Positions 15,543 through 61,268 of a stretch of 64,000 nt of DNA are shown piece after piece (positions within the stretch are counted from its first letter, which is position 1; each line of letters opens with the position of its first letter). Under the pieces are notes generated by a model that saw nothing but the letters and a program-made list of their open reading frames with translations, ran no database searches and had not been told where the DNA came from. The stretch is from NCBI GenBank assembly GCA_002269645.1, contig NIVC01000901.1:1-64000 (forward strand), in the 5' to 3' direction. This stretch comes from Macrostomum lignano. Its lineage: Eukaryota. A program made the translations under genes and the position numbers.

Positions 15543-16463
15543 TGTGGTAGGCCGGTCTACCACTAGGGTGAATGACGGCATGCCTCTAGCGCGGACAACG
15601 GCGGGACATTCCACCCAGTTCCATAGGATGACGAATTGACGTCATGGTTTAATTTTTGTTCCCTGGTTTGTTCCCCCGGTTGTTCCCGCCCTTGCTCCCT
15701 CGTCTGTTCCCTTTTCTGTTCCCTCCCTTGGCCCCTGTTGTTTTAATGTTTCCAGCAGCCGGGTTTTCCTCTTTTTTTCCCTTCGTTGTCCCTTCCCTTG
15801 TCCCATCCTCTGTCCCACCCCTGGGATCCTTCACGCCAATATGTTATATATGAGTTATCTCTGGAGTCATTTTTTCTGTTTTTTTGCTGGTGTTTCTAGT
15901 TTTTCTGGTTCTTGTTGCTGTTGGTTTGATAGTTTGTTACCTTTTCGTTCTGCTCCTGTATCTCGCGTAGTAATAATAAGTAACGATAATAATAATAATA
16001 ACGAAATCATAATAAGTTAGCCAATATTAATATTATCCATACAGTTGTTCAGAATCGAAGCCTTTAGTTTTCTATTAAGTCATTTGCCCGCAGGGCGTAA
16101 AATAACCAGTCAGTCTCAACTTAAAGAAAGCTCTGAGACCCTTAACGTTCCGTAAAACGACATTTACGGTGGTGGCAGCGCTACTTTACTACTGTCAATA
16201 ACCAAATGAGCATCTTCGACAAACTACGAATTTTATGGTGTCCGAGGAACCAATCTGAACGACCCGGGCCGCTACAAGACCGCTCGACTACGAACACGAC
16301 TACCCTCCCCCTGGAATTGAGGACCCCGGCAGACAGAGTATCCAAGGAGAAGACTTAACGCAGCAATTTGTGCAACTTTCCGGCTTTACGTGCCGACGAC
16401 TAACCCAAATTTTATTTTTCCCAATTTCAAAATCCTTTTATTTTCTTCTCCACCCCCACCTCA
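15543..16463 (+). repeat. 5' LTR of Gypsy-A (921 bp)
   Basis: Starts TGTGGTAG and ends CCTCA; by my manual count about 20 differences from the 3' copy over ~720 shared bp. Confidence 0.92.
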
Positions 16464-16464: not shown

Positions 16465-16484
16465 TGGTGTCAGCTAAGTGGGAT
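16465..16484 (+). promoter_or_regulatory. Primer-binding site of Gypsy-A, tRNA-Leu-like
   Basis: TGGTGTCAG[CT]AAGTGGGAT, 1 nt after the LTR; complements the 3' end of eukaryotic tRNA-Leu(CAA/CAG) (TGGTGTCAGAAGTGGGAT) with a 2-nt bulge. Confidence 0.8.
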
Positions 16485-25400: not shown

Positions 25401-27518
25401 CGGGCTAAATATATTAATACACAAAATTACATGTACTAGCTAGTAATTTCAGAATGGTCAGCGACTCCTCCGATTTGTATCCGCGACCGCGTGCCCACAA
25501 ATCCCCCGGCAGACCCTGTCGCAGTTGGTGGTTGTGCACAGAATACAATGTTAATTTTCGAGCTTCTCTGCAAAAAATGCGTGATGCACTCAAGATGCGT
25601 GCTAAAGTCTACTTCTTTGATTGATGGCTGGGTTTTGCCTTTTCGCTTGTGATCATCAAAAGCTTGGGCGTCATTGCTACTGGTGTTTCAGTGTGCGCAT
25701 TATGTCTGGTTATCATATTATGTGCATGTGCAGTGTCTTTTACCTACATTTTTGTTTGTCTCTGTTTCCTGCATGCTCTTTCGCATTTTTACACCTTGCA
25801 CATCCTCATTTTTCTCAATTAACAAGTGAATTCTTTTCTTAAAGACTAATTGCTATTTTAGTTAAGCTAGTAGGTTTTTGGTAATTAAATAATTCAATTT
25901 TGTCTATTTTCCAAAAAATTTTCCAAAAAGTGAATTATTTCAAGTTAATTGGAGTAAAATTTCTAATAAGTAACTATAATTTTTTATTTTAAGTACATGT
26001 AGCTTTGGTATAAGTATTAATGTAATAAGTACTTAAAGTAAAATCAAGCAAGTTATAGTTTTCAGAAATTATGCTACAAATAATCAAATACATACTAGAA
26101 TCCGAATTCCTTTATTAAGGAACATGCAGTTGATATTAAATCCACAATGTGCTTTTTGGTGTTCAAGGATAGTTCCCTGACTTTTTCTATTATTAGTTAG
26201 ATTTTATTATATTTAATGTAAAAATGAACAATTCTATTCACCGTAAAAATGAACATTCTTTATTTGTCGAATCATCTTGACTTTGAAAATATACATAGTG
26301 AAAACTTGATTTTTAATTCAACCTTTCAAGACTTATTTAGACTTCTTAATTCAGTGATTAGTTAAACTGATCGAAGTCCTTTCGAGTGCATGCTATAATA
26401 ATTTCGCACTTTTTCGCACACGATAATTTTAAATGTCTGGGATTTAGAGCAGAGTAACAAAATGCTGTGCTCAAAAACATTTCCTTTGTCAATTTCTTGT
26501 TCTTTTATTTTTGCAAAAGAAATTTAACTGCATATTTAAAATAAAAATAGAAGAAAATTTTATTTTCTCTTTAATATTTTTGTCGTTTATTTTCCGCAAC
26601 AAAGAATAACAAATAGCCTTGATTTCTTCTCAATTTCAAGTTTTCTTGTGGTTTTAGTAGCAGCTTCTTACAGAAATTGTCGAAATAATTTTTTTTGTAC
26701 GATTATTGGTCGATGTATAAACTTTTTTTGCAATAACAAAAAGTTGTGACCTAGCTTTGAGAACGACCCGCATGGTTCAAGGCCTTGAAAGATAAATTGC
26801 CTTGTTTATGGCTATTTAAGCACCTTAAAAATTTTAGTAGATGTAGCCTATAGGCAATAACTTATAAGGCCATGGCCTCCATGGGATTAGAAATTAGATA
26901 AATCAGTATTTCATCATAGATAGGCCTAATACTTTTGCCAGTTTTGGTAAAATCCATCCATGATAAATTTATTTAGGCTTATCCAATTTTTAGGAATCCC
27001 ATGGCCATGTCCATAGATTGGCTACTCATTTTTTAAACTTAAATAGGCCTTTCGAAGTTCATAATTTCCTCTTAGTCCTACCTATTAGTCCTAGGGCCTA
27101 TCTATTTATGTATGCTTATTAATATTAGGCCTATTTTAAGCTAGGCCTATAACTATCAATTCAGGTCCTTCTATTTTAATTAAGGTTAAGACTAGGCCTA
27201 GCTTGACTTTGTGAATTGTGACTAGTCAATCTAGTTAATCTGTTAAAAATATATTCATTTATGATTTTCTTCAAAAAAGCCTAGGCCTATTAGCATCTTT
27301 TGGACTTGTTGCATTTTTAAAAACAATATTATTAATCATTATAAATAATTCTTTGCAATTACACTTGCAACCTGTTTTTGGCATAGCTAGCCTAGCAGAT
27401 CCCTAAGGTTGCTATTATAAATAAATAATGATTATTGTAAATTTGATCTGATTTAGGCCAAGTCCAGAATTTAATAGCCATAGGGCATAGCTTTTAAGAT
27501 TAGGCCTAATGTTTAGGC

Positions 27519-27922
27519 CGGTGCATGACCAAGACCGCCACATACCAAGACCGCCACAGCTCTTACTGACTATTGGAATTGAGGGGAAGCTACCAATCTT
27601 TCAGCATTGCTATTGGTTATGATGGGTTGTGGAGTTAGATAAGGAGGAAATGTCCTAAGATTGGTCACTAATAAGATGAATAAGTGGCCCAAAATGATTG
27701 CAAGTCAACCAGGGCAATTTTAACAATTCAAATTAAATGAAAAAACAAGGAGCCTGGCTCACTCACCTACCTAGCCAGGCTAGCCTGCTCACTAGTTCTT
27801 CTCTCGTGGCCTTGTCTTGCTGGCTCTCCCCATCTTACCCCTCCTTAGCCCCATCCAATAACATGGCAAGCCAAATTCCTCCCTCCTAGCTCTCCCAAGT
27901 GTGGCGGTCTTGTCCTATACCG
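27519..27922. mobile_element. MITE (404 bp), superfamily unassigned
   Basis: TIRs CGGT(N5-6)CAAGACCGCCACA / TGTGGCGGTCTTG(N5)ACCG; identical 7-bp flanks TTTAGGC. Confidence 0.8.
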
Positions 27923-27941
27923 TTTAGGCCTAATCATACTA

Positions 27942-28301
27942 TTTTTTTTATTAGAGGCAGGGGGTTGTATGCACCCTGGCACACTTTAAGCGACATAGGC
28001 ATACAACTAGCGAGAGGCATTGCTGCCTATTCCACTAACTCCCCTGAGCAGGCACACAAGCGTGCGGATATGTATGCAGGCACACTTACACAGGAGTATA
28101 CAATGGCCCTAACTTTATTTATTGTTAGGCATGTATACTTCACTGTGCCTTGGGGGCTGGCTCTCAAGGCTGTTAATTGCACAAGCAGAGAGCCAAGCCA
28201 AGATTCCAATTCAGCCCCAAATTAATGTGACTACTCTTAGAATCGAGCCTAGGTCGCTAGCACACTAGAGCAGCTGTGCTACCGCTTGGCTACAACCCCC
28301 C
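27942..28301 (-). mobile_element. tRNA-derived SINE-like element (~360 bp)
   Basis: Minus-strand head GGGGTTGTAGCCAAGCGGTA (A box), anticodon-like stem GCACA/TGTGC, B-box-like GGCTCGATTCT, A-rich tail AATAAAAAAAA. No TSD seen. Confidence 0.6.
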
Positions 28302-29733
28302 TTTTAATTATAATAGGCCAGCAAATATAAAAAAAACATGCATTGCTTTGCCTAAATACTTTATAGTCTAAAATCAGTTTTAAAATAAAAAATTAAATTT
28401 ATAGAAACATATATTAATTTTTTGTACTTATTATTTTAATTTTATTAATTTAATTTTATTGATTGACTTAGGTAGGGTTTTCTTTTTTGCTAGAGACAAG
28501 GTGCAAAATCATACCCTATGCTCACTTTTAGGGTTTTATGATTTTAAGGCTTAGAATGTAGTTTCTCTTTTTTCTTATATAAAGGCAGTGCAAAAAAGGC
28601 TTCAACAGAAAAATAGGTAATGAGCTCACACCTAAACTGTATCATCAACTTTTTAATTTCAATTTTCAAGGTGCAATTTTAAAATTTAGGGTGCATATAC
28701 ACACTTTGCGCTTAAAAAATAAACCTAGGACTTAGGCCTAGTTAATTTTAAAATAAACTTTATTTTATTTTATAAGTATTCATCATTAAATTAGTTTTAT
28801 GAATTATATCAATATTATTTATCAATCTTAATTGGCAACAATTATTTTTCTATTTCATTCATGCCTAACATTACATGGCCCATCCTCAAACTTGGATGTC
28901 ACCTTGGTCTTGCATTTGAAGAAGCTTGCAAAGCTACTTGGAATTTGAATTTAATATCTCGAATGCTACCTTTTGTGAAGCAATGGTAAGTTTTAGTTAT
29001 AAACTGATTTTTTTCTGTCATCAAAATCTATCAAAATCTATTACAAAATCTGTCAATCTGTTATAAAATTCTGTAATTTAACCCCTTTCTTTTCTAAGGT
29101 TGCTCACCTGACCTGAAGAAGCAGCATTCTGGCAATTGGCAGCAGCATGTTTCTGACTGTTCTAATTCTGATGCATTATATTATTGTTAATTAATTAATG
29201 CTATTGACAATGTCAATTTCAAATTATATATTATATCATATGTGCAGTGCAACTCTAAAGATATCAATATCTACATCAGTGTGTTTATTCTTTGTGTGCC
29301 AGTGACTCACTACTGTACATAAATACACCTTACATCGTTTTTGAATATTGAATATTGAATTTTTGTGCAGAAATATTTTTTGCTATAGCTAGTGTTTCAT
29401 CTGTGTTTCAGTTTCTTTTATATGGTATTGAGATCTGGGGTTCGTATGAAATTTTGAGATCTGGTATTATTTTGAGATTGAGGATGCAACAATTTATTAT
29501 GGCAACCAGTATAATGGCTGCTTTCTCAATGACAATGTGGATTCTATGTGAAATACATAATTACTTCCATATGGATCTTCCATGTGGAATCCATATCTTG
29601 ATTCCACATGGATGGGCGGAGACAAATGCACATATGGATTTCATATGAAAAATCCACATGGAATCCATATCATTTTTTTCACTGGGGAGTAGTCAAGTTT
29701 GCGAACGCATTCTGAATTAAATTTTGCTGTAAG

Positions 29734-30500
29734 TGTACTAGTGCTATGCCTTTATCATAGTATACTCGAATGTTCTTTCAATGTAATAACTGTATATTCG
29801 AATCTTTCTTAGAAACTGAATCTACGCGAACGCCAAATAATAGTTTGTTTTAATGCGCGAAATAAATTGGAGAATTATTTTTTGTTTTAATCGTATGTGG
29901 GGAAAATCACTATATATAGGAGCGGTTTCGCGACAAATATACTCTAACTGTCTTTTACCCGTGAGCAAATAATTGCGAACAGAATAAGCAGTTCAATCTA
30001 AACCATTTCAAAGTCTTTGAGCTAAATAGCGACTTCTTCATTTACAAAACCTGTGAAACGATTCTAAGAAATTTGCTAAGAGAAGGGAATTGGGACTAAT
30101 TCCTGGAGATATACTAAGAGAGGCGCCGTGACCCTCTAGTCTTGGTGAACGCCCGATTAGGACTATACACTAATACATATACCAGTACTAGACCGCTCAG
30201 GCCATAAGCTACTAGAACGCTACCAGAAAGCAAGCCATAAGCTACCAGAAACGCTACTAAGAACGCTACCAGAAACGCTACTAAGAACGCTACCCAGAAA
30301 TATTTAAATGAAATTCTAAGAAATAGTTAGGGAGTAAAAGCAAGTATAATCAGGATAACTGTAGTTGGCAAATCGGTGGGATTAAAATTGATAAAGTAAG
30401 AAGTGAAAGGCCTGTAACAACTTTGGTGGCAGCTCGTAGGATATTTAATAAACACTAATAGTTAGAAGTTTAGAAAGACAGAGCCAAAAGGCCTGTCACA
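29734..30500 (+). repeat. 5' LTR of LTR-B (767 bp)
   Basis: Nearly identical to the split 3' LTR; I found one substitution (agaacgcta versus agaatgcta). Confidence 0.93.
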
Positions 30501-30502
30501 GC

Positions 30503-30513
30503 TGGTGGCAGCG
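30503..30513 (+). promoter_or_regulatory. Primer-binding site of LTR-B, tRNA-Leu(AAG/UAG)-like
   Basis: TGGTGGCAGCG, 2 nt after the LTR end; complement of the tRNA-Leu 3' end ...CGCTGCCACCA. Confidence 0.8.
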
Positions 30514-30596
30514 ATAAGGATTAGAGAAACGGCGCGAACTCTTAAAGCTAGATTCAGAAGAATTCCGAAGAATAATAAGTTTTTCGTAAAGAGAAG

Positions 30597-31175
30597 ATGA
30601 ATCAGAATCAGGCTAATGATGCCATCGCCATGCTGGCAGAGGAACTGCGGAAACATCTCAAGTTAGGATCGAAAGAAGCTGAAGTGCAAGTAGAAAAGTT
30701 CACGCCTGGTCAGAACATTAGGCAGTGGATGAACACGTTTGAGCAACAGTGCAGAATCCAAGGGATTACAGTCGAGAAACAGAAGGAAGCTCTCTTTGCT
30801 AATCTAAACATCCCAGAGGGACTGAAACGCCGAATCAGTCACAGAAAAGAGCAGAGTCAGTACCAGGAGATTAGGCGAAGGATCATCGAAGAATTTGAGC
30901 CGAAGCAGCAGAACAAGAAAGAAGGGATTGACGCATTAGTAGAGTGTCTAATGACTCTGTCAATTGTGCTAACGAACATAAGCCTAGAGCCAAAGACAGG
31001 GCAGCAGCATCAGTCAGTACCAAGACCTCGCCGCCTGAACAGATTCAGTGGAATCAGGCCAGAGCCGAAACCTGGTCACTGCTTCTTCTGCAACCAGCCA
31101 GGACCCATTAGGCCTCAGGCAGGACACCAGTGCCGAATCAACTTCAACCGGCACGCCCAGCAGAAGCCACCCTAA
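30597..31175 (+). CDS. Short gag-like ORF of LTR-B (192 aa)
   Basis: VQVEKFTPGQNIRQWMNTFEQQCRIQGI aligns by eye with Gypsy-A gag VKIQRYTPNQDFDVWIQALEERCEFNGI; altered knuckle CFFCNQPGPIRPQAGHQC. Confidence 0.75.
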   Translation: MNQNQANDAIAMLAEELRKHLKLGSKEAEVQVEKFTPGQNIRQWMNTFEQQCRIQGITVEKQKEALFANLNIPEGLKRRISHRKEQSQYQEIRRRIIEEFEPKQQNKKEGIDALVECLMTLSIVLTNISLEPKTGQQHQSVPRPRRLNRFSGIRPEPKPGHCFFCNQPGPIRPQAGHQCRINFNRHAQQKPP

Positions 31176-31799: not shown

Positions 31800-32442
31800 G
31801 TTAAGAGTTGTAGGACCCGTGACAGTAGAGCTGTAGCTGGCATGAGTTCAGCAGAGAAGCTTTCGAGAGGTCAGGGTCGAGTTGAGATATTGAGTCGAGA
31901 AGTTGTTGAGTTGAGATGAGATGAAATGAAGATGAGATTTCGAGGAGAAGCTGTGAGAATTTGCAAAGTTGTTCGAAGAGAAACATAGAAATAATCTGAC
32001 TCCAGTACCGAAATCCGAAATTAATTTACCAGAGGAAATTAATAATAATTTAAAACCAGCACCAGTGTCAACTAAGAAGAAAGAACAGCCGAAGCCGAAG
32101 AAAAAAATTTGCCATAGACAAAAAGAAGTTAGAATTCCAGAAGTTCAAATTTTAGAGGAGGAAAGCTCAGACGAAGAAAACAGAATTCAATGGAGAGTAT
32201 TCGCAGATCCGAATTCGCAGAGTGAAAACGAAGGAAATGAGGAATTGAACAGTGAGAATACAGAGAGAGCGACTGACTCAGATGAGCCATCAGAAGAAGA
32301 AGAAGGAGCATTAGAGTTAGAGGAGGAACGAGTTCAGCCAGAGAATAGGTATAACTTTAGGATGACTCAGCGAAGGAGAGAAAGAGAAGGCGCAACAGGA
32401 TTTGTGCCCCGAAGGCGCTACGCGAAATATTTAGCACCTTAA
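31800..32442 (+). pseudogene. Remnant of the pol/integrase C-terminal tail in LTR-B
   Basis: RVVGPVTVEL fragment resembles the Gypsy integrase C-terminal region, followed by an acidic low-complexity tail ending RYNFRMTQRRR. Confidence 0.45.
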
Positions 32443-32846
32443 ATCATGACGACGTAAGCAATTTCCCATAAGAAACAGTGTTAAATAGTTAAAAATTCCG
32501 TATTAGAATTACTTATCTGCTTATAAAATTTGACATGCTGTACATAGAGCGAATCTGTAAATACCATATTAATCTACAAAATGCGATCTTTAATTTGATA
32601 CTTTACTCAAGAAAATCTATCAAAAAATAAAAAAGTTATAAAAAGAAATAGAAAATCCATAAAAATTTAGTTGCCAAATCTGTCAAATCTGACATGCCCC
32701 GCCCCACGCGCGAGGGGAGTGCTTCGAAGAGGTCCAGTTTTTCGGCCCGCCAGCCTATAAATACGAGCACCCCGCAGGCCCCACAGATCCCATAGCTCAC
32801 TGCTAGCTTCCTTTCTATTCTAAGAGCCATTCGCAGAGAAATCAAA

Positions 32847-33715
32847 ATGAACAACTCTATTGATATCTTGGACGAGTTAATTGGCAATCTGTCAGACGAT
32901 ATGGAGCCCCAGCCAGCGCCCAACACCGACGAAAATGAGGCACCGCTTCGATGTGCAACACGTCCAAAGGCGCCTGGTGTATCCAGCAAACGGCCAAGAA
33001 CATCATCGCCAGCTTCATCGCCTTGCCGCCAAATGAGGGTCGAAGGCCCCGAGCAGAAGCGCGCCGCCCTGGTGGCAGCACAGGCAGCTGCGCCCGTGCG
33101 CTCCTATGTTGTCAAGGCCACGCCAGGATCGTCGACATCAAGCCGAACGCAGCAGTTGGTGTCACCGCCAGCTGCCCCATCATCGAGAAAGACCCCGGCA
33201 CCACGGCAGAAGAAATCGACAGCTGCGACACCGCCAGCTCAGCAGCCAGCGTCGCAGCCGAGCCTGCAATCAGCGCAGCAGTCAGCGCTGCAGCCGAGCC
33301 TGCAATCAGCGCAGCAGTCTAGCCAGCCATCAGCACTACAGCCGAGCCAGCAGCAATCGAATTCGCAGAGAGATTTTCATCGCATCGTCCGAGAACTTGT
33401 GGAGACTCGCGGAGCAGAGGTGGAAAAGCTACGCTTCCACATTGAGCAATACGCACTGAAAGTAGCGTACCACCGATCCGACAGCGCTACCCCCAATGCT
33501 CGCAAATTTGGACACACCTGAAGTTTCTGAGGGATCAATTCAGTTACCAGGAAGCTGTCGCTGTTCTCCAGGACGTCGCCTATCGCCTCCAGCGAGCTAT
33601 AAGAGCCAACCCGCCGCCAGCGCTGACGGTCCTCGACGAAGAGTACCGATGGTTTTTCGCTCAAGTCGGCTGGCCCTACTATCGCGACCTCCCGGAGCCC
33701 TGCATGTTTATCTGA
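32847..33715 (+). pseudogene. LTR-B accessory ORF3 (about 288 codons, one frameshift near 33517), function unknown
   Basis: ATG at 32847 downstream of TATAAA (32756). A P/S/Q-rich N-terminus precedes a helical-looking domain that continues in the -1 frame (LKFLRDQFSYQEAVAVLQ...WPYYRDLPEPCMFI*). Confidence 0.65.
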
Positions 33716-34001
33716 ACTATTGAGGTGAACTAACTTTTGCGTTGCCTTTAATAACAATTTTGCCTTTTATAATACTTTTATAATAGTTCGTTTTGCTTCC
33801 ATAATAGTTCTCACTTTAATGGTTTACCTACATAATAGTTCTATCACAACCATTTTATGCACCAATTGTTTTAGCACTGAATTGTGTTTTCTGCACCTTG
33901 CTTTGCACCTTTTCACCTGCATTTTCCTACGATATCAATTTTTCACTGTATACATATAATATAGTATTTCGTTCAAAATTTGATATATAGAGGAGGAAAG
34001 T

Positions 34002-34624
34002 TGTACTAGTGCTATGCCTTTATCATAGTATACTCGAATGTTCTTTCAATGTAATAACTGTATATTCGAATCTTTCTTAGAAACTGAATCTACGCGAACG
34101 CCAAATAATAGTTTGTTTTAATGCGCGAAATAAATTGGAGAATTATTTTTTGTTTTAATCGTATGTGGGGAAAATCACTATATATAGGAGCGGTTTCGCG
34201 ACAAATATACTCTAACTGTCTTTTACCCGTGAGCAAATAATTGCGAACAGAATAAGCAGTTCAATCTAAACCATTTCAAAGTCTTTGAGCTAAATAGCGA
34301 CTTCTTCATTTACAAAACCTGTGAAACGATTCTAAGAAATTTGCTAAGAGAAGGGAATTGGGACTAATTCCTGGAGATATACTAAGAGAGGCGCCGTGAC
34401 CCTCTAGTCTTGGTGAACGCCCGATTAGGACTATACACTAATACATATACCAGTACTAGACCGCTCAGGCCATAAGCTACTAGAATGCTACCAGAAAGCA
34501 AGCCATAAGCTACCAGAAACGCTACTAAGAACGCTACCAGAAACGCTACTAAGAACGCTACCCAGAAATATTTAAATGAAATTCTAAGAAATAGTTAGGG
34601 AGTAAAAGCAAGTATAATCAGGAT
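34002..34624 (+). repeat. 3' LTR of LTR-B, left part (continues at 41712-41855)
   Basis: Matches 29734-30356, is interrupted at GAT by CMC-2 and resumes after 41708. Confidence 0.93.
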
Positions 34625-35713
34625 CCCACTAAAAACGGGTTATCGGATTGACATCGGAATCTGGCCGGATTTTAGCAGGGCAATCGGAATCTGGTGGAAC
34701 TAGATTTGCAAGCAAAAAAACGATGAAAAATGTGCTCCAATGACATCCAAAAACTACACAAAGTATTTCCTGGCTTTCTTTGCTTCTCGGAAGCACCCCG
34801 GAAACATACCGGAATATGAGGCTCCATATTCCGACCGGAATTTACACTGCACCCGAGCCGTCACTTTCCGACAATAATTTTGAACGCAAGCTTCGCAAAA
34901 ATATCAGCATACTTATCAACTAGTATGATGACTGTCCACTTTGAAGAAAAAACTCTTTTAGACGGGAATTCTGCGCCCTCGCAATTTGCAAGAAGAACAG
35001 CTAGCAAGCTTTGTTTTACGCGATCAAGTGTTGAAGCTATTGACCAGTTTAATTTGCACACTTCCATTTTCACTAATTTGCGCTCGCTTGGAACATCAGC
35101 TCTTTTGAACACAGCTCCTTTAGCCAACACAGGACAGTGAGACCACAACTTTGAACTCTCTGCAACTTCATCTGTGGTTACACGCAAATACTATACTAGT
35201 ATGCTACTCCTTTCGTTCATTTAGTGCATTTCTTTAGTCTCCTATTATCTTGTATGCTTGAATTTTTTACTGGCGGACTATATAATCGCTAATTTCAGTA
35301 ATAAAATATATTATTATTGTTTATTTGTGATAACAGCTAGCCAAAACTATTATACTATACCTAAAAAGAACAATTTGGTATACTGCAATACTGCATAGTG
35401 AGTTTTGACCATAGTGGCACTTGCAGAAGCTTATTAATATTTGAGTACAGTATATGATAGGCACCAATTGTCCAGCTATACATAATATATACTGACATTG
35501 TACTATACTCATAGCCAGTTTCAATTCAGACCATCGCAAAGTAGTAAACAAGGGCCAATTCTATAAATTCTATCTAGTGCTAGTCCTAGATTTCTCATAT
35601 TGAAAGAGACTGCAAATTAAAATAATTGACTACATTGTGTACTAAAAACATATAAGGCAAAAGCTAGTTCTAATAATAAATAAGTATTGTCATTTATTGA
35701 TTAATTTGATTTA

Positions 35714-37624
35714 ATGGCTTTGCCAAGTCGTGCATCAAATAGACAGGTAGCCAGGGAAATGCAAGAAATACTACAAGAGCTTCCGACGATTGGGGCTACA
35801 AATATTGAGGCTAGGCTAGATCTAGAAAATGTGATGGGACAAAATGAAGATACAAAGAGCAATGCTGAGCCTGAAGAGACATTCTTTGATGCAGTGGGTC
35901 CAATGCCAATGGACTTTGATAGCCAAATGCATGCTCTTTTTGAGGAAGAAATGGATGAAGAAGTTGAAGAACAAGATGACTCTCTTGGCTATAATAGACC
36001 TCCGCCACTTACTTTGGTGCAAGAGTTACTATTGTTTTACATAACATTCAATATTACTAGTGCTGCCATGAATTACCTACTTCGGCTTTTGGCTCGTTTC
36101 TTCACTGACATACCCACTTCTGTCTACATGCTTAAGAGGCAGTGTCCAAGCACAGAGATCACGAGGTTCAATGTCAATAATGGTCATGTTGCCTTTCTCT
36201 CCATTGTGGACAATTTGAAATTTTTACTTGATTCCAAAATCCTTACAATTCCATCTGGAATTACAAACTTCTTTGTTTCCTTAAGGGTAAATGTTGATGG
36301 TCTTCCTTTATTCAAGTCATCTAGAATCAATCTTTGGCCTATATTGATGCTAGTAAATAATTGTTTTAGACCTGTGCCATTTGGCCTTTTTTGTGGCATT
36401 GGAAAGCCTGACCTACATGTCTTCTTAGAAAGGTTTTGTTCTGAAATTGCAGGTCTACAGAATGGTTTTGACTATAATATGAAAAGAATTTTTATTAAGT
36501 CAATTGTCTTTATCTGTGACACACCTGCTAGAAACTTTATTCAATGTTTGAAAGGTCATTCCAGTTATCTTGGCTGTAGTTGGTGTCGTCAAGTAGGAAA
36601 TTACACAGGTGACAGAATTTGTTTTTCTAATACCATTGCAGAGGCTCGAACAAATCAAGATTATGAACAAGGGCGTGAAAATAACCAACTTGGTATTTCT
36701 CCACTAGCCAGGATTGTTCCAATGTATTCCAATTTTGTACCCGACCCAATGCATATTGTCTACTTAGGGGTTGTAAAGAAGTTGCTCAAATTTTACTTCC
36801 TTGGAGCAAAGCACATTCGACTTGCTTGCAAGTTGTCATCCCAATTAAAAGAGGAAATAAATAGAAAAATAATGTATATTAAGGAATTTGTTCCTTCAGA
36901 TTTTCAAAGACGGCTTCGCACTTTTGCTGACATTGAATACTTTAAAGCAACGGAATTCCGCCAATGTCTTTTGTACTTTGGTCCGTTCCTTTTTAAGAAT
37001 ACCTTGCCAAAGGTCTACTTTAATCATTATCTATTATTGCATTGGTCAATTTCAGTCCTTAATTCACCTGAGTACTGTGAAATTTATTTTGATGCTGCTG
37101 AGGCTTGTTTGAAAAAGTTTGTTGCTGAGGCACCAAGCCTATATTACAACAGTGTAGTTTCTTATAATTGGCATGCTCTGTTGCACCTTCCTGAGTTTGT
37201 GCAAATGTATGGCCCACTTGACACGTTTTCAGCTTTCCCTTTTGAAAACTACTTGCAATTGATCAAGAAGAGAATTCGTTGTACCAATCATGTTTTTGCC
37301 CAATCTGTCAACCAGTTGTTGAATGTGAGATTTTTATATTCTAATGACAAGTTGGGTGACATTGGTTTTACTAATAAGAGTCCTAATAACTGTGCTATTG
37401 TTGATGGAAAGGTTGTCATTGTCACCAATTTAAATGATGGTCTTATTTCAGGCCAGGTTCTCACATTTGATAGAAGCCTTTATTCCTATCCATATCCATC
37501 AAAATCAATTGGCATAGGCTACTATAAGCATTCAAAGACATTTGTATCCAACTTGCAACCTTCTAAGAAGGCCATTCTAATTCCCTTTGGCGGAGACTAT
37601 CTGGTCATTCCTTGCATCAAGTAA
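35714..37624 (+). CDS. CMC-EnSpm transposase, 636 aa, intact
   Basis: Motifs VNVDGLPLFKSS..LWPIL, ICDTPAR..CLKGH..Y.GC..C, DPMHIVYLG, FKATEFRQ.LLY.GP, YNWHALLHL and FSAFPFENYL are typical of animal EnSpm transposases. Confidence 0.93.
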   Translation: MALPSRASNRQVAREMQEILQELPTIGATNIEARLDLENVMGQNEDTKSNAEPEETFFDAVGPMPMDFDSQMHALFEEEMDEEVEEQDDSLGYNRPPPLTLVQELLLFYITFNITSAAMNYLLRLLARFFTDIPTSVYMLKRQCPSTEITRFNVNNGHVAFLSIVDNLKFLLDSKILTIPSGITNFFVSLRVNVDGLPLFKSSRINLWPILMLVNNCFRPVPFGLFCGIGKPDLHVFLERFCSEIAGLQNGFDYNMKRIFIKSIVFICDTPARNFIQCLKGHSSYLGCSWCRQVGNYTGDRICFSNTIAEARTNQDYEQGRENNQLGISPLARIVPMYSNFVPDPMHIVYLGVVKKLLKFYFLGAKHIRLACKLSSQLKEEINRKIMYIKEFVPSDFQRRLRTFADIEYFKATEFRQCLLYFGPFLFKNTLPKVYFNHYLLLHWSISVLNSPEYCEIYFDAAEACLKKFVAEAPSLYYNSVVSYNWHALLHLPEFVQMYGPLDTFSAFPFENYLQLIKKRIRCTNHVFAQSVNQLLNVRFLYSNDKLGDIGFTNKSPNNCAIVDGKVVIVTNLNDGLISGQVLTFDRSLYSYPYPSKSIGIGYYKHSKTFVSNLQPSKKAILIPFGGDYLVIPCIK

Positions 37625-38325
37625 ATCAAGTTATTTGCCTGAAGTCCATCGTCCATAATTGTGTCTTGCCTAAGTTGTTTACAAATGTAATTGTGTATAC
37701 AGTCAGCAAATATAATTTAATTAGGTCTAGAATAAAAAAATATATAATTCCATATATATTATATAATATTGAAGTAGTATAGCCATTATAGCCATTAACA
37801 AACTAAAGCATTTGTTCGGATCATGGTATGAAATAAGATGATCATTATTATTTTTATTATTATTATTAATTAATTTTATTACAAAAAACAATTATTATTG
37901 TTTTGTATAATTTCTATGCTTTATTATAACCTTCCTAAGTGCTTGCAAATATGAGTACGTATTATTTAAGTAATGTGTCCTTCAATGTGAATGTCCTAGT
38001 CAGACTATTTATGATTTTTGTGGCAGAATTCTAGTGTAAATGTATTTTGACAAGTTGTCTACTAGTAAGTTAGCAAGTAGCAATAGGCCCCTATGAACAA
38101 TTCAATAAACATTTTTTGTGTATCCTCTAAATTTGTAACTCACTTGTTCCAATGGAATAATTACATGTTATGTGCCATATTATGCTGTAAAAACTTTAGT
38201 TACTGCTTGGCCAACATTACACCACAATGAGTAAATAGTCCTTCTTAGTACATGCAGTGTCTTGTGCAGTTGCTAAATCATTAAATAATAAAACTTTAGT
38301 TCAGTAATCTTGTTGCAGTGACTCA

Positions 38326-40836
38326 ATGAAGTTTATTGTGTATTTTACCTCTGACTATGAAGTAATAGAAGCTGATGAGGAAGATTGCCTTCTTGGCTCT
38401 TTTACTAAGTGGACTATTGAGCAATGGAGGCAAGTGGACAAACTTGAAGAAGTTCATATTCAGGTAATATATAATGACAAGTTGGAAGATTGCATTGTTT
38501 TGCAAGTTGTTCCACATGCCTGTGACACCAGTGACACTGTTGCCATGCTACGAGCTGTGGTCAAAGAGAAGCACTATCGTCCAAGCAAGCTACTAAAGAT
38601 TCTGCCAGATCGTGTTCGATCCAACAAAAGACAGACATTTCCTCCTATGAAGAATCTTGAGACAGACAATGATGCAACAGATATTGATGCTGTAAGTATA
38701 ATGTAAAATAATATTTAATTTAATATTTAGTATACAACTAAGGTCTGCCACGTGCGTTAATATAAAATATAAAATAATATAATTGTAGGTTGCTGATGCA
38801 GCCAGCCATGGACAAGCCAACCGGGGTCCCACACAGAGAAGTGAATCATTGTCTGGGTCTTCTGGTGTTGTTTGCCTCCCTCCACTGCCAACTCTGCAAG
38901 CTTCGGGAATTGCAGAAGTACGTGCTTACATTTGTGTCTATTTAAAAATGTCAAGCATTTATAGTCTTTATGTATTCATGCATTTGGAGTACAGTATGCT
39001 TATTAATTTCAAATTATTGCACTTGGCAGTTTGCCAGACATATTACAAAATGATTGAGACAGTTTTAATAGTTTGGATTTTATTCTTTTCTTTAATTTCT
39101 CTAATCTAACACTGTCTTCACCTCACCCCAATGCCAGGCTAGCGTGACGGCTTGTTGTCACACATCACATTGTTATGTTTATATCTATACACCTCTGTTA
39201 TGTCTGCATCATCTCATTCAATGCGTGTATGGTTACTGTTGAGTATATCATTTCTCCTACTATGTTACAGATTAACGTGCTGAGAAAAAAATTATCTATT
39301 CTAATCATTTCTTTACCAACCCAGGCCTACGACGGCACAATGGCGCAGAGCACTGTCAGGAAACTTCAGAACCGCACCTCCATGGCACCTCCACCAGAAC
39401 CGCAGTCGATCGACAGCCCAGCCTTTGAGCGACTGCACCCTCAAGCAGCTCTCAATTCGTCTGGAAGCTCGACGCCTACTCGACACCCGTCTAGGCAGTT
39501 TTCGTGCACTCCAACTTCAGCCCCAAGAGCCAGCTTCTCGCGCGAACAGCTGCGACAGCCTGCGCAGGTAATTTGTAAAACTCGTTTCATGAAGTCTTGC
39601 AACAGTTTTTTTCAGAACTTGCCACGGTTTCTAACGAAAATTTAATCCACAGTTTTCAGCTCTGCCTCAGCTGGAAACGCAAGCCAGAAGCCAGGTTGAG
39701 GCTTGTGGGTACACGTGGGGATCTGTTGAAGGTAATGGAGTTATTGTTATTGACGCTGAGATAGCAGTAGTTGACAACAGCCGCAAAATGTAACTGGTGA
39801 CCAGCGCACACTCGTTGCTTGAACAGCTAGGTGGATGAAATCGACAGCGTCTAGCTTGGAACTGGCACGTAAATTGAAGTTAATTTACTATGCAACTTTC
39901 AACTCATTATTCAGGGCTCTACTGTCTGCAGCTCTTGAGCATTCGCGAACTCATGAAGCTAAAGGCCACGATTGAGTCGTCCAGTCTCCGGGGAGCTGCT
40001 GCGGCACCCACGCTCGAAATTCCATTCGGGCTTCCTGTCGCAAACGAGGCCGACCTCAACAGTGCAGTCGAGAAGATTTCTGCCAGTGCGGAGGCCAAGA
40101 CTGCGCTGGTTAGTTAATATCTTATGAGCATTTCTCTTACTATTAAACTTCCACCATGCGTTCGGAACTTCGGTACTGTAGACTCGGGGAAATGGTCCAG
40201 ACGCTTTCATGTGTGAATTTTAGACTTCGTTCATTCAGAAAAAGTGCCTGGGCCCTTCTGTGACTCAGTCTGTTCGCTATGCGATGAACGAGCTTCTGGC
40301 GCGAGACTTCCAGCAGCGCTTCAATCGCACTGGCGGCAAGGATGCCCGAGGCCGTGGCCAACAAGAGAACTCCAAGATGTCTTTCGACAAGTGCTTTGGA
40401 GGGATTGTGAAGGGTAGGTTATGCTTTACTGTCGCATATGTACCAATTACCAGAGTTGATTCTTAATAGTGATATCAATAGTGATATACTGTCTGATACA
40501 ACGTACTGATAAATGTACGGGGTGGGTACTGCCATAACCATACGTATTCATGCCGTAATTCATACATGTATTTCTCTCAGGTCAACAGTTGTGGACTTGA
40601 CAACCTGCTTATGTTGTGATTGTCAAATTTCAGACGCGTTGGGCTCTTCATTTACGCTGCACGACATCAATAAGGCAATCGAACGGTTCTTCGATGGCGT
40701 CCGGAAGCGTCGAAGCCACGAGGGATCAGCTGAATCGGACGTGGCCGGCGGGCATGGCGCCCCCACTCCAAGCAGGCGTCGCTCGACGATGCGAGTGCAA
40801 CGCATATCCGACAGCACTGACGAGGAAAATATGTAA
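38326..40836 (+). CDS. Spliced second gene of CMC-2 (~454 aa), C-terminal DUF4806-like domain
   Basis: Predicted exons 38326-38691, 38789-38917, 39325-39567, 39660-39731 (least certain), 39932-40108, 40239-40413 and 40634-40836. All introns are GT-AG and the joined frame has no stop. LPVANEADL, VRYAMNELL..FNRTGGK and INKAIERFF fit the DUF4806 pattern (from memory). Confidence 0.7.
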
Positions 40837-41899
40837 CTTGGTGGCATAGTAAAAAATTGTCCCTTTCGTCGAAACTTCGCGCTAACTTAAATTTTAACTG
40901 CTCCGAGACCGAAATGCTAGTGTAGTACAACTGGGTTTGAAGGCCGCGAATTTGAACAGTTTCACTACAGCAATTTAACGTCTTCAGTTCACTCGCAGCG
41001 CAGCGCCTTACAATTGTTCACTCGATTGCAGCGCGCTTTTCAAACTGGTGCGATTATATTTTAATTAGACAACGATTAAAATAAATTATAATTAATATTT
41101 GCTTTATTTTCAAGGGTCAAAAAAGTAGAAATTAATAACATAATAATGCTATTTGCAATTGCTATAGTTACTATATAGCAACAATTAAATATTTAGTGCA
41201 ATTTTAACAGAACATTTTCAGCCGCACTACACTAGGCCTAATCAAATTGACCTAACAACTATAAAATACTTGTCGAACTGTCTCCAACCTGCACCCTATT
41301 AGTGACTGCTTTGGTGGCCCACCACGCGTTGCTGCAATGTTCTATTTTGTAAACACTAAATAAACACTTATTATTCCTTTCCATCTGCTGCCATTGAGCA
41401 ATTTTGTATTTGATGTAAAATGATGCACACCCGGTCTTTGTGTCATTGAATTTTCAGACGGGATCGGGCTGTCTAAATGTACATGCGTGACTGCGTGTAC
41501 ACTGATCTTCGGCTACATTGTAGCACATGCATGTTTGTACTCGCTTTGTGCTTCGTCATTTATATCAGCTCGGAAAGTGAAACGAAAAGCTCTGGATGAG
41601 TCCGATCGTCAAATCCGATCAGAATCCGAATGGATTTCCCGGGACAAATTTCCACTCGGTTTCCGAGCTGCATTTCCGATCGGAATCCGACCAAGCTTTT
41701 TTAGTGGGGATAACTGTAGTTGGCAAATCGGTGGGATTAAAATTGATAAAGTAAGAAGTGAAAGGCCTGTAACAACTTTGGTGGCAGCTCGTAGGATATT
41801 TAATAAACACTAATAGTTAGAAGTTTAGAAAGACAGAGCCAAAAGGCCTGTCACATAAGCTTTCTCTGCACCTATTCTGTGCTGAAAGCAAACTTTCAA

Positions 41900-43370
41900 T
41901 TTTCCTTCAAATTTTGTTCTCCTTATGCTTTCGGGATAAAAGCAAGCATTCGTTTTGCTGCTAATTTTCTGTACTTTCCTTATGCTTGAGGGATAAAAGC
42001 AACTAATTTTTCTGTCCGTTTCCTTATGCTTGATGGCAAAAGCAGTAGTGTTCCGCCGTAATTACGGCTACGGCTATGGCAAATTACGGCTACGACACCT
42101 TTGAAGCCGTATTTTCATTACGGATTATGGTTACGGACATATTTTGAGCTTACGGTTACGGTTACGGATTACGGAGATTTTTCTAGACTTGCCGTAATTG
42201 GTAGCCGTAACAAAAATTATTTATTTTTAACTGTTAAGTGTTATAAAAGAAATTTTTTTTATATCAACTTTAACCAGTTTTCATTTTGTTTTACTAGTTA
42301 TTATTATTTTTTACATTTGTTAACTTTCTAAATATCTACGAAACTTTTTGAAAATGAAAAACGAATTTTTTCATGAATTTTCTCATTAGGCATACGGCAT
42401 AGCATAGCATAGCGATAGCATGATAGCAGCGAGACAGAGAGAGCCAGTCAAAGCCTACAAGAGACTAAGAATCTGGCATTCTTATTTCTTAGCCATATGT
42501 AGCATTTAGCTCCTTAGCATAAAATAGGATATTAGATTTAGATTATGATGATAAGGGTGAAAGAATATTAATAAGGAAATACTAAATAAATACTAATACG
42601 ATACGAATATGAATTATGATTGAAAATTGATTGAAACCAAAGAAGACAATACAATAGACAATGCAATAAAATGAAAAAGAAAAAATGTAACATGCAATTT
42701 CTTAGTCATCGGAAATTTTGAAGCAGTTTTATTTGAACAAATTCATATATTTATTTAATGATATTAAACATACACATTGACCTTGGCATGTCAGTCATAG
42801 ATTCATATTGTAGCGAAACAACAGAATCACGACACAGAAAACTGAGAAAGGCACAAAAAACAACAAAAAAACAACAATGCTAAAGAATACTTAGATAAAG
42901 ATATTATATTTACGACAAAATAAATGAATATTAATGCATGAATGAACAACAAGTAGGTTTTATTGCTATTGTTTTATCCTTTTTATCTGTCCTTTTCTGT
43001 CTGCCCCACTTTTCATGCAAAAATATCAATTTTTGTTATACATTACGGCTACGGTTACGGCAAATTACGGTTACGGACTTTTTTAGCCCGTAATGACGGC
43101 AAAATTTGGCTATGGAAGTTGCTTCTTTCTTACGGCTACGGTTACGGTTACGGAGGTCAAAACTCGCGGCGGCGGAACACTAAAAAGCAGTGTTTCTCAA
43201 TGTACTTTCCTTATGGTTGAGGGTAAAAGCAACTAATTTTCTGTACTTTCCTTATGCTTGAGGGCAAAAGCAACTAATTTTCTGTCTGTTTCCTTATGCT
43301 TAAGGGCAAAAGCAACTAATTTTCTATACTTTCCTTATGCTTGAGGGCAAAAGCAACTATTTTTTTCAAT
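41900..43370. repeat. ~41-bp tandem array inside Gypsy-A, interrupted by the hAT MITE
   Basis: TTTTCTGTACTTTCCTTATGCTTGAGGGCAAAAGCAACTAA units on both sides of 42046-43182. Confidence 0.85.
42046..43182. mobile_element. Non-autonomous hAT element/MITE (1137 bp)
   Basis: TIRs TAGTGTTCCGCCG / CGGCGGAACACTA, perfect 8-bp TSD AAAAGCAG, subterminal TACGG repeats. Confidence 0.92.
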
Positions 43371-44296
43371 TTCTGCTCCTTACGCTTTCCGGTCAAAAGC
43401 CTTTGTACATGGTGCTCATGCTCAATTGGTGTCATATTTATTCAACGCGACCCGCATTCCTGCGTTCTGATATTTAGCCTTAGGCTTGATGGAAAAAGCC
43501 AGCACCTACGCGACAATTATTTATCCGCATGTGATTCATTAATTTGCTCAATTGCGTGTCAGAAACTTTGCGAAGTTTTATTTCAGTTGTAACCTTGCAG
43601 TCCTTGCTTGTGGCTGAAGGTATCTTTTAATTTTTGCAAGCCAATGTTGCTCTGGTGTCCCAGTCGTTTGCCCCGCTCAGGTCTAGCCACCCTGGCTCTA
43701 GGCCTTGTCCTCAGCGAAGGGCATCTGAGGTGAACGGCCCCTATTTTCTTTGTTCTGACCGAGCCAAGCCTGGGAAAATTTGTAAGGGTGCCTGTCCAGC
43801 CCCTTCCCAGTGCCTTTTGCCATTTTGTGTAACTCCTTATGGAGATCCAAATTCTAACTCGGTCACTATGCCTGTATCTATCTGCTATTCTAATTTTTAG
43901 GAACTACCTATGTTCTTACTATTTTTCTAAACTACTGTTTATGCGATTGTTTGGCCCCTTCTCTCTCTCTAACCGCCAGCCTGTTTATGAGCTGTGTGAG
44001 GCGCCCCATTCATTCATTTTGATTTTGGACCCCTGCCGCGCGGTTATCTATTTTATGACTCCTTGATTCATGCGCCCACCCCAACTCTGTGTGCCACCTT
44101 AGAGTGCACGGGGGTGATGGCTCAATTCCAGTGGTTGAATTTTATTTCCCCTGGTTGGTTTGGAATTCCACCAGTTGGAATATTTTGCGCCCTATTTAAG
44201 GAGCCATCTTCAATTTTATTTTCTCCAATTCTGTTGATCCGACCTGCTAAGCTAAATTTTCTTCTGGACACTTGCATTACGTCTTGTTGCAGCTCT

Positions 44297-44815
44297 ATGG
44301 CTAACAATTGGTCCAACGGCGACAACGCCTCTCCAGAGATTCAGACAACCGCGCCCTGGCTGTCCACCAATGAAGCTGACACCCTGCGGGCCCTGGCCAC
44401 TGCCCCGAGCGGCGCGGCCCCAGCTTGCGAACAGCTCCGCCGCGCACTCAATGAGGCCTACCACTAGGCAGCCGACAAGGGCCGCGTTCAAGTCGACGCC
44501 CCATGGCAGACACTCTGCCGCGAAATGCCACCCGCGACCATGAGAGAGCTCCTTGATGCGACGCTGCGGCGTGCAGATGCCTGCTTTTGTGAGGGAGGAC
44601 GACCCCGGCCTGCCCTCGCCCTATTTGTCACGCTGGCTTACTGGGAGGCGGGCCACCTCCAGAACGGATGGCTACCTGAGGTCCGCCAGTTCTGGGAGGC
44701 CGCCATCGAGAGGCACCCGGAGCAGCTCTACTTCGACGGGCGGCGCTTGCAGCTACTCAACCACCAGCCCGAGCCCGCGCGTGGCCGGCCGCTGAAACAG
44801 AGCCGCAACAATTGA
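44297..44815 (+). pseudogene. Gypsy-A accessory ORF3 in env position (172 codons, one internal TAG), function unknown
   Basis: ATG at 44297; the track ORFs ending at 44467 and starting at 44525 share one frame, separated only by TAG 44465-44467. GC-rich coding-like island just before the 3' LTR. Confidence 0.7.
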
Positions 44816-44872
44816 ACTGAGACGTCCGGGAGTTCGTCTGTCTACTGCCGTTCGCCCCGGCGCCCCCGCGCC

Positions 44873-45594
44873 TGTGGTAGGCCGGTCTACCCACTGGGGT
44901 GAACGACGGCAGGCCTCTAGTGCGGACAATGGCGGGACATTCCACCCAGTTCCATAGGATGACGAATTGACGTCATGGTTTAATTTTTGTTCCCTGGTTT
45001 GTTCCCCCGGTTGTTCCCGCCCTTGCTCCCTCGTCTGTTCCCTTTTCTGTTCCCTCCCTTGGCCCCTGTTGTTTTAATGTTTCCAGCAGCCGGGTTTTCC
45101 TCTTTTTTTCCCTTCGTTGTCCCTTCCCTTGTCCCATCCTCTGTCCCACCCCTGGGATCCTTCATGCCAATATGTTATATATGAGTTATCTCTAGAGTCA
45201 TTTTTTCTGTTTTTTTGCTGGTGTTTCTAGTTTTTCTGGTTCTTGTTGCTGTTGGTTTGATAGTTTGTTACCTTTTTGTTCTGCTCCTGTATCTCGCATA
45301 GTAATAATAAGTAACGATAATAATAATAATAACGAAATCATAATAAGTTAGCCAATATTAATATTATCCATACAGTTGTTCAGAATCGAAGCCTTTAGTT
45401 TTCTATTGAGTCATTTGCCCGCGGGGCGTAAAATAACCAGTCAGTCTCAACTCAAAGAAAGCTTAAGAGTACCCAAGAAGAAGACTTAACGCAGCAATTT
45501 GTGCAACTTTCCGGCTTTATGTGCCGACAACTAACCCAAATTTTATTTTTCCCAATTTCAAAATCCTTTTATTTTCTTTTCCATCCCCACCTCA
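44873..45594 (+). repeat. 3' LTR of Gypsy-A (722 bp; lacks the ~200 bp at 16133-16334 of the 5' LTR)
   Basis: Direct repeat of the 5' LTR, followed by TSD AAAC. Confidence 0.92.
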
Positions 45595-61265: not shown

Positions 61266-61268
61266 GCC

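What the first reader, a model, noticed from the sequence alone, without database searches (positions are those of the whole stretch)
32847..44815. Candidate new accessory-protein family in the env slot of two different Gypsy-lineage elements
Seen: both LTR elements carry an extra sense ORF between pol (or its remnant) and the 3' LTR: LTR-B 32847-33715 and Gypsy-A 44297-44815. Each has a TATA-like box about 90-105 bp before the ATG (TATAAA 32756; TATTTAA 44193). After repairing one lesion each (a 1-nt frameshift; one TAG), both show the layout EQ..AL..AYH - 47/48 aa - P.PAL - 8 aa - W - 5/7 aa - GW (EQYALKVAYH...PPPALTVLDEEYRWFFAQVGW versus EQLRRALNEAYH...PRPALALFVTLAYWEAGHLQNGW). Neither shows an obvious signal peptide or transmembrane anchor, so they do not look like classical env. 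Inference: a diverged, independently promoted accessory gene retained even by a non-autonomous element, possibly a host-silencing antagonist or particle factor. The similarity is weak and by-eye only.
Basis: partly seen in the sequence, partly recalled or inferred. Interest (0 to 1): 0.8.

Follow-up and report, generated by a model that had tools for sequence, protein, structure and literature searches.

The report
Uncharacterised accessory gene in Gypsy retrotransposons
Two nested jumping genes each carry an extra, non-envelope gene; one belongs to a small conserved protein family of unknown function also found in a flatworm, while kinship of the second is plausible but unproven.

Summary
Both extra ORFs, TATA-like boxes and breaks lie where stated. 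Gypsy-A ORF3 is a real gene: two database homologs (one from the flatworm Macrostomum lignano, 53% identical) share a ~140-residue core. The core is predicted all-helical, has no membrane anchor, and has no significant Pfam, PDB or fold match. It is neither env nor a FAST-type fusogen. LTR-B ORF3 looks coding but has no database homolog. The claim that the two ORFs are one family is not established. BLAST, HMM and profile-profile tests are non-significant. A custom remote-homology score is borderline only with lenient gaps. Same slot, related gag, equal motif spacing and congruent predicted helices make it about even odds. LTR-B is very young yet its ORF3 is broken, which weakens the 'retained by selection' argument. 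Most likely mechanism (inferred): a soluble, probably nuclear, trans-acting regulator of the element's own RNA output, made from its own TATA promoter, working like Cer1 CERV or Grande gene23 without belonging to either family. Non-env ORFs in this slot are a known kind; I found no description of this protein family. The homologs' genomic context could not be checked.

The parts
15543..16463 (+). Gypsy-A 5' LTR (TG...CA), with a 202-bp stretch at 16133-16334 absent from the 3' LTR
   Evidence: self-BLAST and junctions; 4-bp TSD AAAC on both sides of the element
16465..16484 (+). Gypsy-A primer-binding site (tRNA-Leu-like; assignment recalled, not tested)
16531..22458 (+). Gypsy-A gag, protease, RT and integrase, broken into several frames
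   Evidence: Pfam Retrotrans_gag, Asp_protease, RVT_1 (E 8.6e-32), rve; best PDB relative Ty3 RT, E 1.3e-48; frames
22523..29686 (.). nested DNA-transposon-like insertion with terminal inverted repeats and a 2-bp duplication; not part of the finding
29734..30500 (+). LTR-B 5' LTR (767 bp); LTR-B is nested in Gypsy-A with 4-bp TSD TAAG
30503..30513 (+). LTR-B primer-binding site (tRNA-Leu-like; recalled)
30597..31175 (+). LTR-B gag (short), related to Gypsy-A gag
   Evidence: BLASTP 24% identity over 115 columns, E 7e-10
31957..32442 (+). LTR-B K/E-rich open frame, unidentified; resembles an integrase tail by eye only
32686..32761 (+). candidate ORF3 promoter of LTR-B: GC/CpG-rich segment (66% GC, 7 CpG) followed by TATAAA at 32756
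   Evidence: activity untested
32847..33715 (+). LTR-B ORF3 (289 codons read with X at the break): acidic N-terminus, NLS-like KRPR at residue 48, S/P/Q/A-rich linker, helical C-terminal region; frame break somewhere between 33474 and 33518
   Evidence: frames; codon model switches frame in this region; composition; helices
34002..41855 (+). LTR-B 3' LTR (34002-34624 and 41712-41855), split by a 7.1-kb DNA transposon at 34625-41708
   Evidence: 766 of 767 positions identical to the 5' LTR; inverted termini and 3-bp duplication
44193..44199 (+). TATA-like box upstream of Gypsy-A ORF3
   Evidence: activity untested
44297..44815 (+). Gypsy-A ORF3 (172 codons; in-frame TAG at 44465-44467); conserved core at about residues 19-158; basic C-terminal tail
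   Evidence: homologs at E 4.8e-38 and 8.5e-51; alignment; model; tail charge
44873..45594 (+). Gypsy-A 3' LTR
   Evidence: 701 of 719 aligned positions identical to the 5' LTR

Best explanation
Shown: Gypsy-A carries a third gene between integrase and the 3' LTR. It encodes a conserved, soluble, mostly helical protein of an undescribed family with two homologs elsewhere, and this copy is broken by a stop. LTR-B, a pol-less relative, carries a coding-like ORF in the same slot. Inferred (about 0.5): LTR-B ORF3 is a remote member of the same family that gained a long disordered N-terminal arm. Inferred mechanism: the gene is transcribed from its own TATA promoter inside the element, ends in the 3' LTR, and makes a nuclear, nucleic-acid-associated adaptor. 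The adaptor acts in trans to raise the element's output, by promoting transcription or export of the full-length genomic RNA, in the manner of CERV, Rev or Grande gene23. A separate promoter would let it be made when LTR-driven RNA is scarce. Action in trans would explain how a copy with a broken ORF3 still transposed.
For: Real gene: M. lignano BOX15_Mlig013834g1 is 53% identical over 142 columns; a second homolog scores E 8.5e-51; 55 of 140 core columns are invariant in the 3 sequences while both termini diverge. Soluble and helical: maximum 19-residue hydropathy 0.76 (A) and 1.02 (B); model with five core helices, block pLDDT 68-87 over residues 41-140. Nuclear or nucleic-acid hints: net charge of the last 30 residues is +4, +6 and +9 in the three A-family proteins, with 1, 2 and 4 RG dipeptides; B has KRPR at residue 48. 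Own promoter: TATA-like boxes at -91 and -104 in both elements; B's follows a GC/CpG-rich segment. Custom remote-homology score with lenient gaps: 1-20 of 500 shuffles reached B's score in 5 of 6 settings, and 0 of 212 real-protein windows did with the three-sequence profile. Precedent: CERV is a nuclear accessory protein needed for genomic RNA export (PMC10309623); Grande gene23 is nuclear and has its own promoter (PMC7264820).
Against: No functional data at all. The A-family proteins have no K(K/R)x(K/R) motif (0 of 3), and B's tail is acidic, net -3, so the nuclear hints differ between A and B. Homology of B fails standard tests: BLASTP E 4.5 or worse; local score below the shuffle mean, p 0.71; hhalign probability 0.2-0.3%; HMM 0.8 bits, with at least 18 of 1410 window peptides scoring higher; BLOSUM profile reached by 85-372 of 400 shuffles. 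In the custom score all 6 strict-gap settings were non-significant (80-134 of 500), as was one lenient setting (101 of 500). With the profile lacking Gypsy-A ORF3, 2-21 of 212 real-protein windows matched or beat B. 10 of 14 motif residues are invariant against 7.8 expected, p 0.14. The B model is low-confidence (pLDDT 58, single sequence, C-terminal piece only). Rotifer elements show that related lineages can carry unrelated ORF3s, and state that ORF3s are typically expressed from spliced messages (PMC5408684). Whether the two homologs sit in LTR elements is unchecked.
Confidence: 0.35

Rival explanations
1. The two ORF3s are unrelated accessory genes captured independently into the same slot. 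The shared motifs are chance matches between A/L/R/P-rich helical proteins encoded by GC-rich DNA. The Gypsy-A family remains real.
For: All standard tests are non-significant; the custom score collapses with strict gaps; the family's invariant YWExGH block and APWL start are absent from B; no DNA similarity between the elements (best blastn E 0.35); the C-terminal extension of the M. lignano homolog gives by-eye motif matches of similar look in two incompatible registers, also non-significant; unrelated ORF3 types occur in related rotifer lineages (PMC5408684).
Against: The gags are only 24% identical, so a vertically inherited accessory protein would be expected below detection (inference); spacings and predicted helix order agree; lenient-gap scores are borderline.
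Confidence: 0.45
2. The protein is a cytoplasmic or particle-associated factor (Gag or RNA chaperone) or an adaptor that blocks host restriction or small-RNA silencing, rather than a nuclear regulator of RNA output. Independent of the homology question.
For: A small helical domain with a basic RG-containing tail fits an RNA chaperone or adaptor equally well; no NLS-like motif in the A family.
Against: B carries an NLS-like motif and a long disordered arm; separate promoter-driven expression is not needed for stoichiometric packaging (inference); no nuclease, Tudor or other recognisable anti-silencing domain.
Confidence: 0.25
3. ORF3 is expressed by splicing (or trans-splicing) from the LTR-driven transcript, and the TATA-like boxes are incidental. 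Independent of function.
For: An AG preceded by pyrimidines lies between box and ATG in both: A has a CAG 4 nt before the ATG; B has 13 of 14 pyrimidines before an AG at 32824. ORF3s are typically spliced in rotifer elements (PMC5408684, passage).
Against: A's site has only 9 of 14 pyrimidines, below the 11 reached by the top 7% of background YAG sites; B's strong tract ends in AAG, not YAG; TATA-like boxes occur at similar distance in both elements.
Confidence: 0.25
4. ORF3 is a transduced host gene or a passenger with no role in transposition.
For: Its named homolog is annotated as a hypothetical M. lignano protein; both copies here are broken; LTR-B apparently transposed with a broken ORF3; homolog context is unchecked.
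Against: Only 2 homologs among 1.84 billion cluster representatives, with variable termini, which is unlike a conserved host gene; the ORF is uninterrupted by introns and its codon use fits the element's gag-pol model; about 6.5 substitutions are expected in A's ORF3 since insertion, enough to explain a stop.
Confidence: 0.12
5. A degenerate env or small fusogen.
For: Position in the env slot, sense strand; the M. lignano homolog reaches hydropathy 1.6 in its C-terminal extension, outside the shared core.
Against: No membrane-length hydrophobic stretch, no hydrophobic N-terminus and no Gly at position 2 in A or B; 2-5 cysteines; 172-291 residues; no env family hit in Pfam.
Confidence: 0.03

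Closest known systems
CERV of C. elegans Cer1 (PMC10309623; abstract and one results section read)
   Same: Non-env accessory protein of a Gypsy-type element with no homologs outside its host group, fast-diverging sequence, nuclear role in genomic RNA export (functional analogy only)
   Different: CERV is 517 aa, spliced from gag-overlapping exons, with a Cys-rich and a G-protein-like domain; the ORF3s here are stand-alone, after pol, with a small helical core
Plant additional ORFs between pol and the 3' LTR, e.g. maize Grande gene23 (PMC7264820; main text read)
   Same: Slot between pol and 3' LTR, long spacer, own promoter, nuclear protein of unknown function
   Different: gene23-type ORFs are antisense and in plants; these are sense, with an animal homolog; no sequence relation tested or found
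Bdelloid rotifer ORF3s: env, TM-bearing ORFs, GDSL esterase, DEDDy exonuclease (PMC5408684; first fifth and passages read)
   Same: Non-env sense ORF3s in invertebrate Gypsy-like elements
   Different: Those are enzymes or membrane proteins with Pfam matches; this family has neither
MDG1-group sORF1 and sORF2 of Drosophila (10.1101/2025.03.14.642691; one section and passages read)
   Same: Small accessory ORFs; sORF1 is about 110 aa, nuclear and has its own short transcript
   Different: Both lie upstream of gag; sORF2 is a 63-107-aa transmembrane FAST-like fusogen, which these are not
Planarian Burro elements (PMC6431247; passages read)
   Same: Flatworm Gypsy-like elements with accessory coding capacity suspected of acting on host systems
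   Different: Burro domains (MATH, BIR, BCL2-like, env) are recognisable and mostly inside a giant polyprotein; none found here

Membership tests
Ty3/Gypsy LTR retrotransposon (Gypsy-A) | TG...CA LTRs, TSD, PBS, order gag-protease-RT-integrase, Ty3-type RT | tested here: met
   RNase H was not separately identified
Non-autonomous Gypsy-lineage element (LTR-B) | LTRs, TSD, PBS, polypurine tract, gag related to a Gypsy element, no pol | tested here: met
Gypsy clade (Gmr1/Osvaldo group suspected from recalled RT signatures) | RT phylogeny with reference elements | not tested
   no reference sequences on hand; the lead is recalled
One ORF3 family spanning A and B | significant sequence or profile similarity | tested here: inconclusive
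   non-significant; borderline only with lenient gaps; profile only 3 sequences deep, none for B
One ORF3 family spanning A and B | same fold by superposition | not testable with these tools
   no model-to-model comparison offered; helix order congruent; B model partial and low-confidence
Errantivirus env (F-type or gB-type) | signal peptide and transmembrane anchor flanking an ectodomain (PMC13524379) | tested here: not met
   hydropathy scan only, no dedicated predictor: 19-residue maximum 0.76 (A) and 1.02 (B); N-terminal 9-residue maximum 0.21 and 1.13
Errantivirus env (F-type or gB-type) | class I or III fusion-protein fold | tested here: inconclusive
   no such match among the listed rows; a missing match does not exclude
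sORF2/FAST-like fusogens | 63-107 aa, one transmembrane helix, juxtamembrane basic patch, often MGxxxS/T | tested here: not met
   172-291 aa, no transmembrane stretch in A or B, no Gly2 in 5 of 5 sequences checked
GDSL or DEDDy enzymatic ORF3 | Pfam match to SGNH/GDSL or DEDDy | tested here: not met
CERV | spliced from gag-overlapping exons; Cys-rich and G-like domains | tested here: not met
   stand-alone ORF after pol, small helical core
CERV-like function | nuclear and required for genomic RNA export | not testable with these tools
   needs localisation and knock-down
Grande gene23-type antisense ORF | [quoted passage not shown] | tested here: not met
   both ORFs are sense
Independently promoted gene | transcript 5' ends downstream of the TATA box | not testable with these tools
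   sequence motifs only

The most novel reading that the evidence does not exclude
An old, lineage-wide family of self-promoted, soluble accessory proteins occupies the env slot of a whole group of Gypsy elements in flatworm-like hosts. It has diverged beyond sequence detection yet kept one helical fold, is carried even by pol-less satellites, and acts in trans as a Rev/Tat-like activator or anti-silencing factor for the group, making it an animal LTR-retrotransposon counter-defence or export protein of a new fold.
Probability: 0.2. Interest if true: 0.75.

Novelty: new variant of a known kind. Interest (0 to 1): 0.42.

Why it matters
Few accessory proteins of animal LTR retrotransposons have a known function (CERV and sORF2 are the cases I read). 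A conserved, non-env family with a natural full-length member in M. lignano, where transgenic LTR reporters already work (PMC12801592), makes it directly testable how env-less elements regulate their RNA or evade host control. If LTR-B's ORF is the same family, the gene is old and travels with non-autonomous elements. If not, this remains one more lineage-specific ORF3 of unknown function.

Tried and rejected
Homolog searches for LTR-B ORF3 found nothing: N-terminal piece scored on residues 165-224, C-terminal piece against longer proteins, Atlas. These searches need shared exact words or large clusters, so the blanks are weak. The Atlas gave no hit for the A family. Pfam, PHROGs, NCBIfam and PDB sequence searches gave nothing significant (DUF7011 at E 0.06-0.12 and a low-complexity NCBIfam hit at E 0.09 were dismissed). 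Fold searches of the A model: no match with E up to 0.001 in PDB or BFVD; best VIA Z 6.9 (rmsd 4.2, 117 aligned), inside the noise range for helical proteins. Three CTD-interacting-domain hits at Z 5.4-6.3 were not accepted. B piece: best Z 6.6. Four entries appear in both top-50 lists, which helical bundles can give by chance. A homodimer prediction for the unnamed homolog's core returned no verdict (score 0.00, alignment not used, fold uncertain) and is no evidence either way. Three weak hits (E 1.8e-6 to 3e-4), which fall on or at the edge of the M. lignano protein's extension, were not counted as homologs. An internal repeat in that extension was not significant (126 of 2000 shuffles at best). 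The shuffle control crashed and was replaced. Programmed frameshifting at the LTR-B break was considered by eye; I saw no canonical slippery heptamer and ran no tool on it. The bacterial promoter scan is irrelevant to a eukaryotic element. Rfam found 0 matches in the window. The gene id of the M. lignano homolog occurs in 0 papers and in 0 of 5 supplements of PMC12801592. Not possible: dN/dS (no DNA for homologs, no second copy in the window), genomic context of the homologs (cluster look-up unavailable; the metagenome and viral contig collections stayed unchecked; the genome collection is prokaryotic and was not used), and folding LTR-B ORF3 across its break.

Full report
Anatomy. Gypsy-A spans 15543-45594, with LTRs identical at 701 of 719 aligned positions, a 4-bp target duplication and a primer-binding site. 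Its gag, protease, RT and integrase are recognised by Pfam, and its RT is closest to Ty3 RT among solved structures, E 1.3e-48. LTR-B (29734-41855) is nested inside it, with 767-bp LTRs identical at 766 positions; its 3' LTR is split by a 7.1-kb DNA transposon. Two further insertions lie in the same interval. Without the nested insertions, about 1.4 kb separates the integrase stop from ORF3. LTR-B has a short gag related to Gypsy-A gag (24% over 115 columns, E 7e-10) and no detectable pol.

Observation. Both ORFs, both TATA-like boxes and both breaks are at the stated places. A codon model trained on Gypsy-A gag-pol favours the ATG frame at the start of LTR-B ORF3 and again just before the break, is uninformative in the low-complexity middle, and favours the second frame in the 3 windows after it. 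The ORF is therefore coding-like and frame-broken between about 33474 and 33518. The motif spacing is real (46, 8, then 5 or 7 residues), but 'EQ..AL' is written loosely.

Gypsy-A ORF3 is a real, undescribed protein family. Read with X at its stop, it found 1 significant hit among 481 candidates: M. lignano hypothetical protein BOX15_Mlig013834g1, 53% identical. A profile search of 1.84 billion representatives gave 5 hits at E up to 0.001. Two are family members (that protein and an unnamed 233-residue one, E 8.5e-51) and three are weak hits that I did not count. The three sequences share a core with 55 of 140 columns invariant and have divergent ends. AlphaFold2 on this three-row alignment gave a mostly helical model, mean pLDDT 63 and 68-87 over residues 41-140. 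No family or solved-structure search named it. The host of the window was not identified; the only named homolog is from a flatworm.

Is LTR-B ORF3 the same family? It has no homologs of its own, so only a three-sequence profile could be tested against it. For: a log-odds score for remote homologs that I devised, with lenient gaps, was reached by 9, 9, 1, 101, 20 and 14 of 500 shuffles and by 2, 2, 2, 31, 5 and 2 of 1032 window controls. With strict gaps it was reached by 80-134 of 500 in all six settings. Against 212 overlapping windows of real proteins, 0 beat B with the full profile and 21, 6 and 2 did with the profile lacking Gypsy-A ORF3. The predicted helices of B's C-terminal piece (16-31, 34-54, 60-73; pLDDT 58) follow the same order and lengths as A's 68-76, 79-100 and 105-117, with PxPAL and GW at the same junctions. 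With gags at 24% identity, true orthologs would be near or below detection (inference). I put homology at about 0.5.

Not env. Neither ORF has a membrane-length hydrophobic stretch, a hydrophobic N-terminus or Gly2 (simple hydropathy only, and the usual threshold of about 1.6 is recalled). Env ectodomains in metazoan Gypsy elements are flanked by signal peptide and transmembrane segments (PMC13524379, passages). FAST-like sORF2 proteins are 63-107-residue membrane proteins upstream of gag (10.1101/2025.03.14.642691, passages and one section).

Expression. TATA-like boxes sit 91 and 104 bp upstream. The chance of one in a 40-bp slot is 0.02-0.20 by pattern, so two is modest support, and B's follows a CpG-rich segment. 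Splice-acceptor-like sites also occur between box and ATG but are not exceptional. Neither route is shown.

Selection. Gypsy-A's age allows about 6.5 substitutions in ORF3, enough for a stop after insertion. LTR-B's allows about 0.6, so its frame break probably came from the parent copy or from the assembly. The copy then moved without its own ORF3 product.

Mechanism. Shown: a conserved soluble helical protein encoded after pol. Inferred: its own transcript ending in the 3' LTR, and nuclear, nucleic-acid-associated action, from the basic RG-bearing tails of the A family (+4, +6, +9) and the KRPR motif and 62% S/P/Q/A linker of B. By analogy: promotion of transcription or export of genomic RNA, as CERV does for Cer1 (PMC10309623, abstract and one section) and as proposed for plant additional ORFs such as Grande gene23 (PMC7264820, main text). 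Confidence 0.35 for the whole chain, about 0.85 that Gypsy-A ORF3 is an element gene of a real family. Rivals overlap and are not exclusive: unrelated ORF3s, a particle or anti-silencing factor, spliced expression, a passenger gene, or env.

Novelty. Non-env ORFs in this slot are known from rotifers (PMC5408684, first fifth and passages), plants and, in another form, planarian Burro elements (PMC6431247, passages). The M. lignano LTR survey I read in part (PMC12801592: abstract, first results, passages, supplement list and the first part of one supplement) has 0 occurrences of 'ORF' in its main text. Searches found no description of this family. The library lacks most subscription journals and Repbase, and that paper's supplement holds sequences for only six of its 137 families, so an existing annotation is not excluded. 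Verdict: a new variant of a known kind, interest 0.42.

Noticed in passing
window 16133-16334: A 202-bp stretch present only in Gypsy-A's 5' LTR contains, at 16170-16180, the same 11-base primer-binding-site motif as LTR-B; it may be a leader fragment from another element of the group.
   Followed up: partly
window 44845-44872: Gypsy-A has a C/G-rich run instead of a polypurine tract before its 3' LTR, whereas LTR-B has a normal purine run.
   Followed up: no
window 22523-29686, 34625-41708, 42046-43182: Three nested DNA-transposon insertions: two with CCCA termini and 2- or 3-bp duplications (the second with a 639-codon transposase-like ORF at 35705-37624) and one hAT-like with an 8-bp duplication (superfamily names recalled).
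   Followed up: partly
window 41940-42045 and 43191-43365: A roughly 41-bp tandem array in the native spacer between pol and ORF3, split by the hAT-like insertion; a possible regulatory element.
   Followed up: no
window 20127-21020: A long S/P/D-rich open frame between the RT/RNase H region and the integrase of Gypsy-A, with no meaningful Pfam match.
   Followed up: no
window 30424-30434 and 41779-41789: LTR-B's LTRs contain an internal near-copy of its primer-binding-site motif.
   Followed up: no
window 44636-44671: The most conserved block of the A family includes an invariant E-x-x-H, which recalls metal-binding helices; it is absent from LTR-B ORF3 and no ferritin-like fold was listed.
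   Followed up: partly
P0002 residues 166-275: The C-terminal extension of the M. lignano homolog looks by eye like a degenerate repeat of the core, but is not significant.
   Followed up: yes
window 14266-15042 and 48747-49602: A FLYWCH-domain fragment and a mariner-type transposase fragment flank Gypsy-A.
   Followed up: no
window 1-12000 and 51000-64000: Dense minisatellite arrays with units of about 8-34 bp.
   Followed up: no
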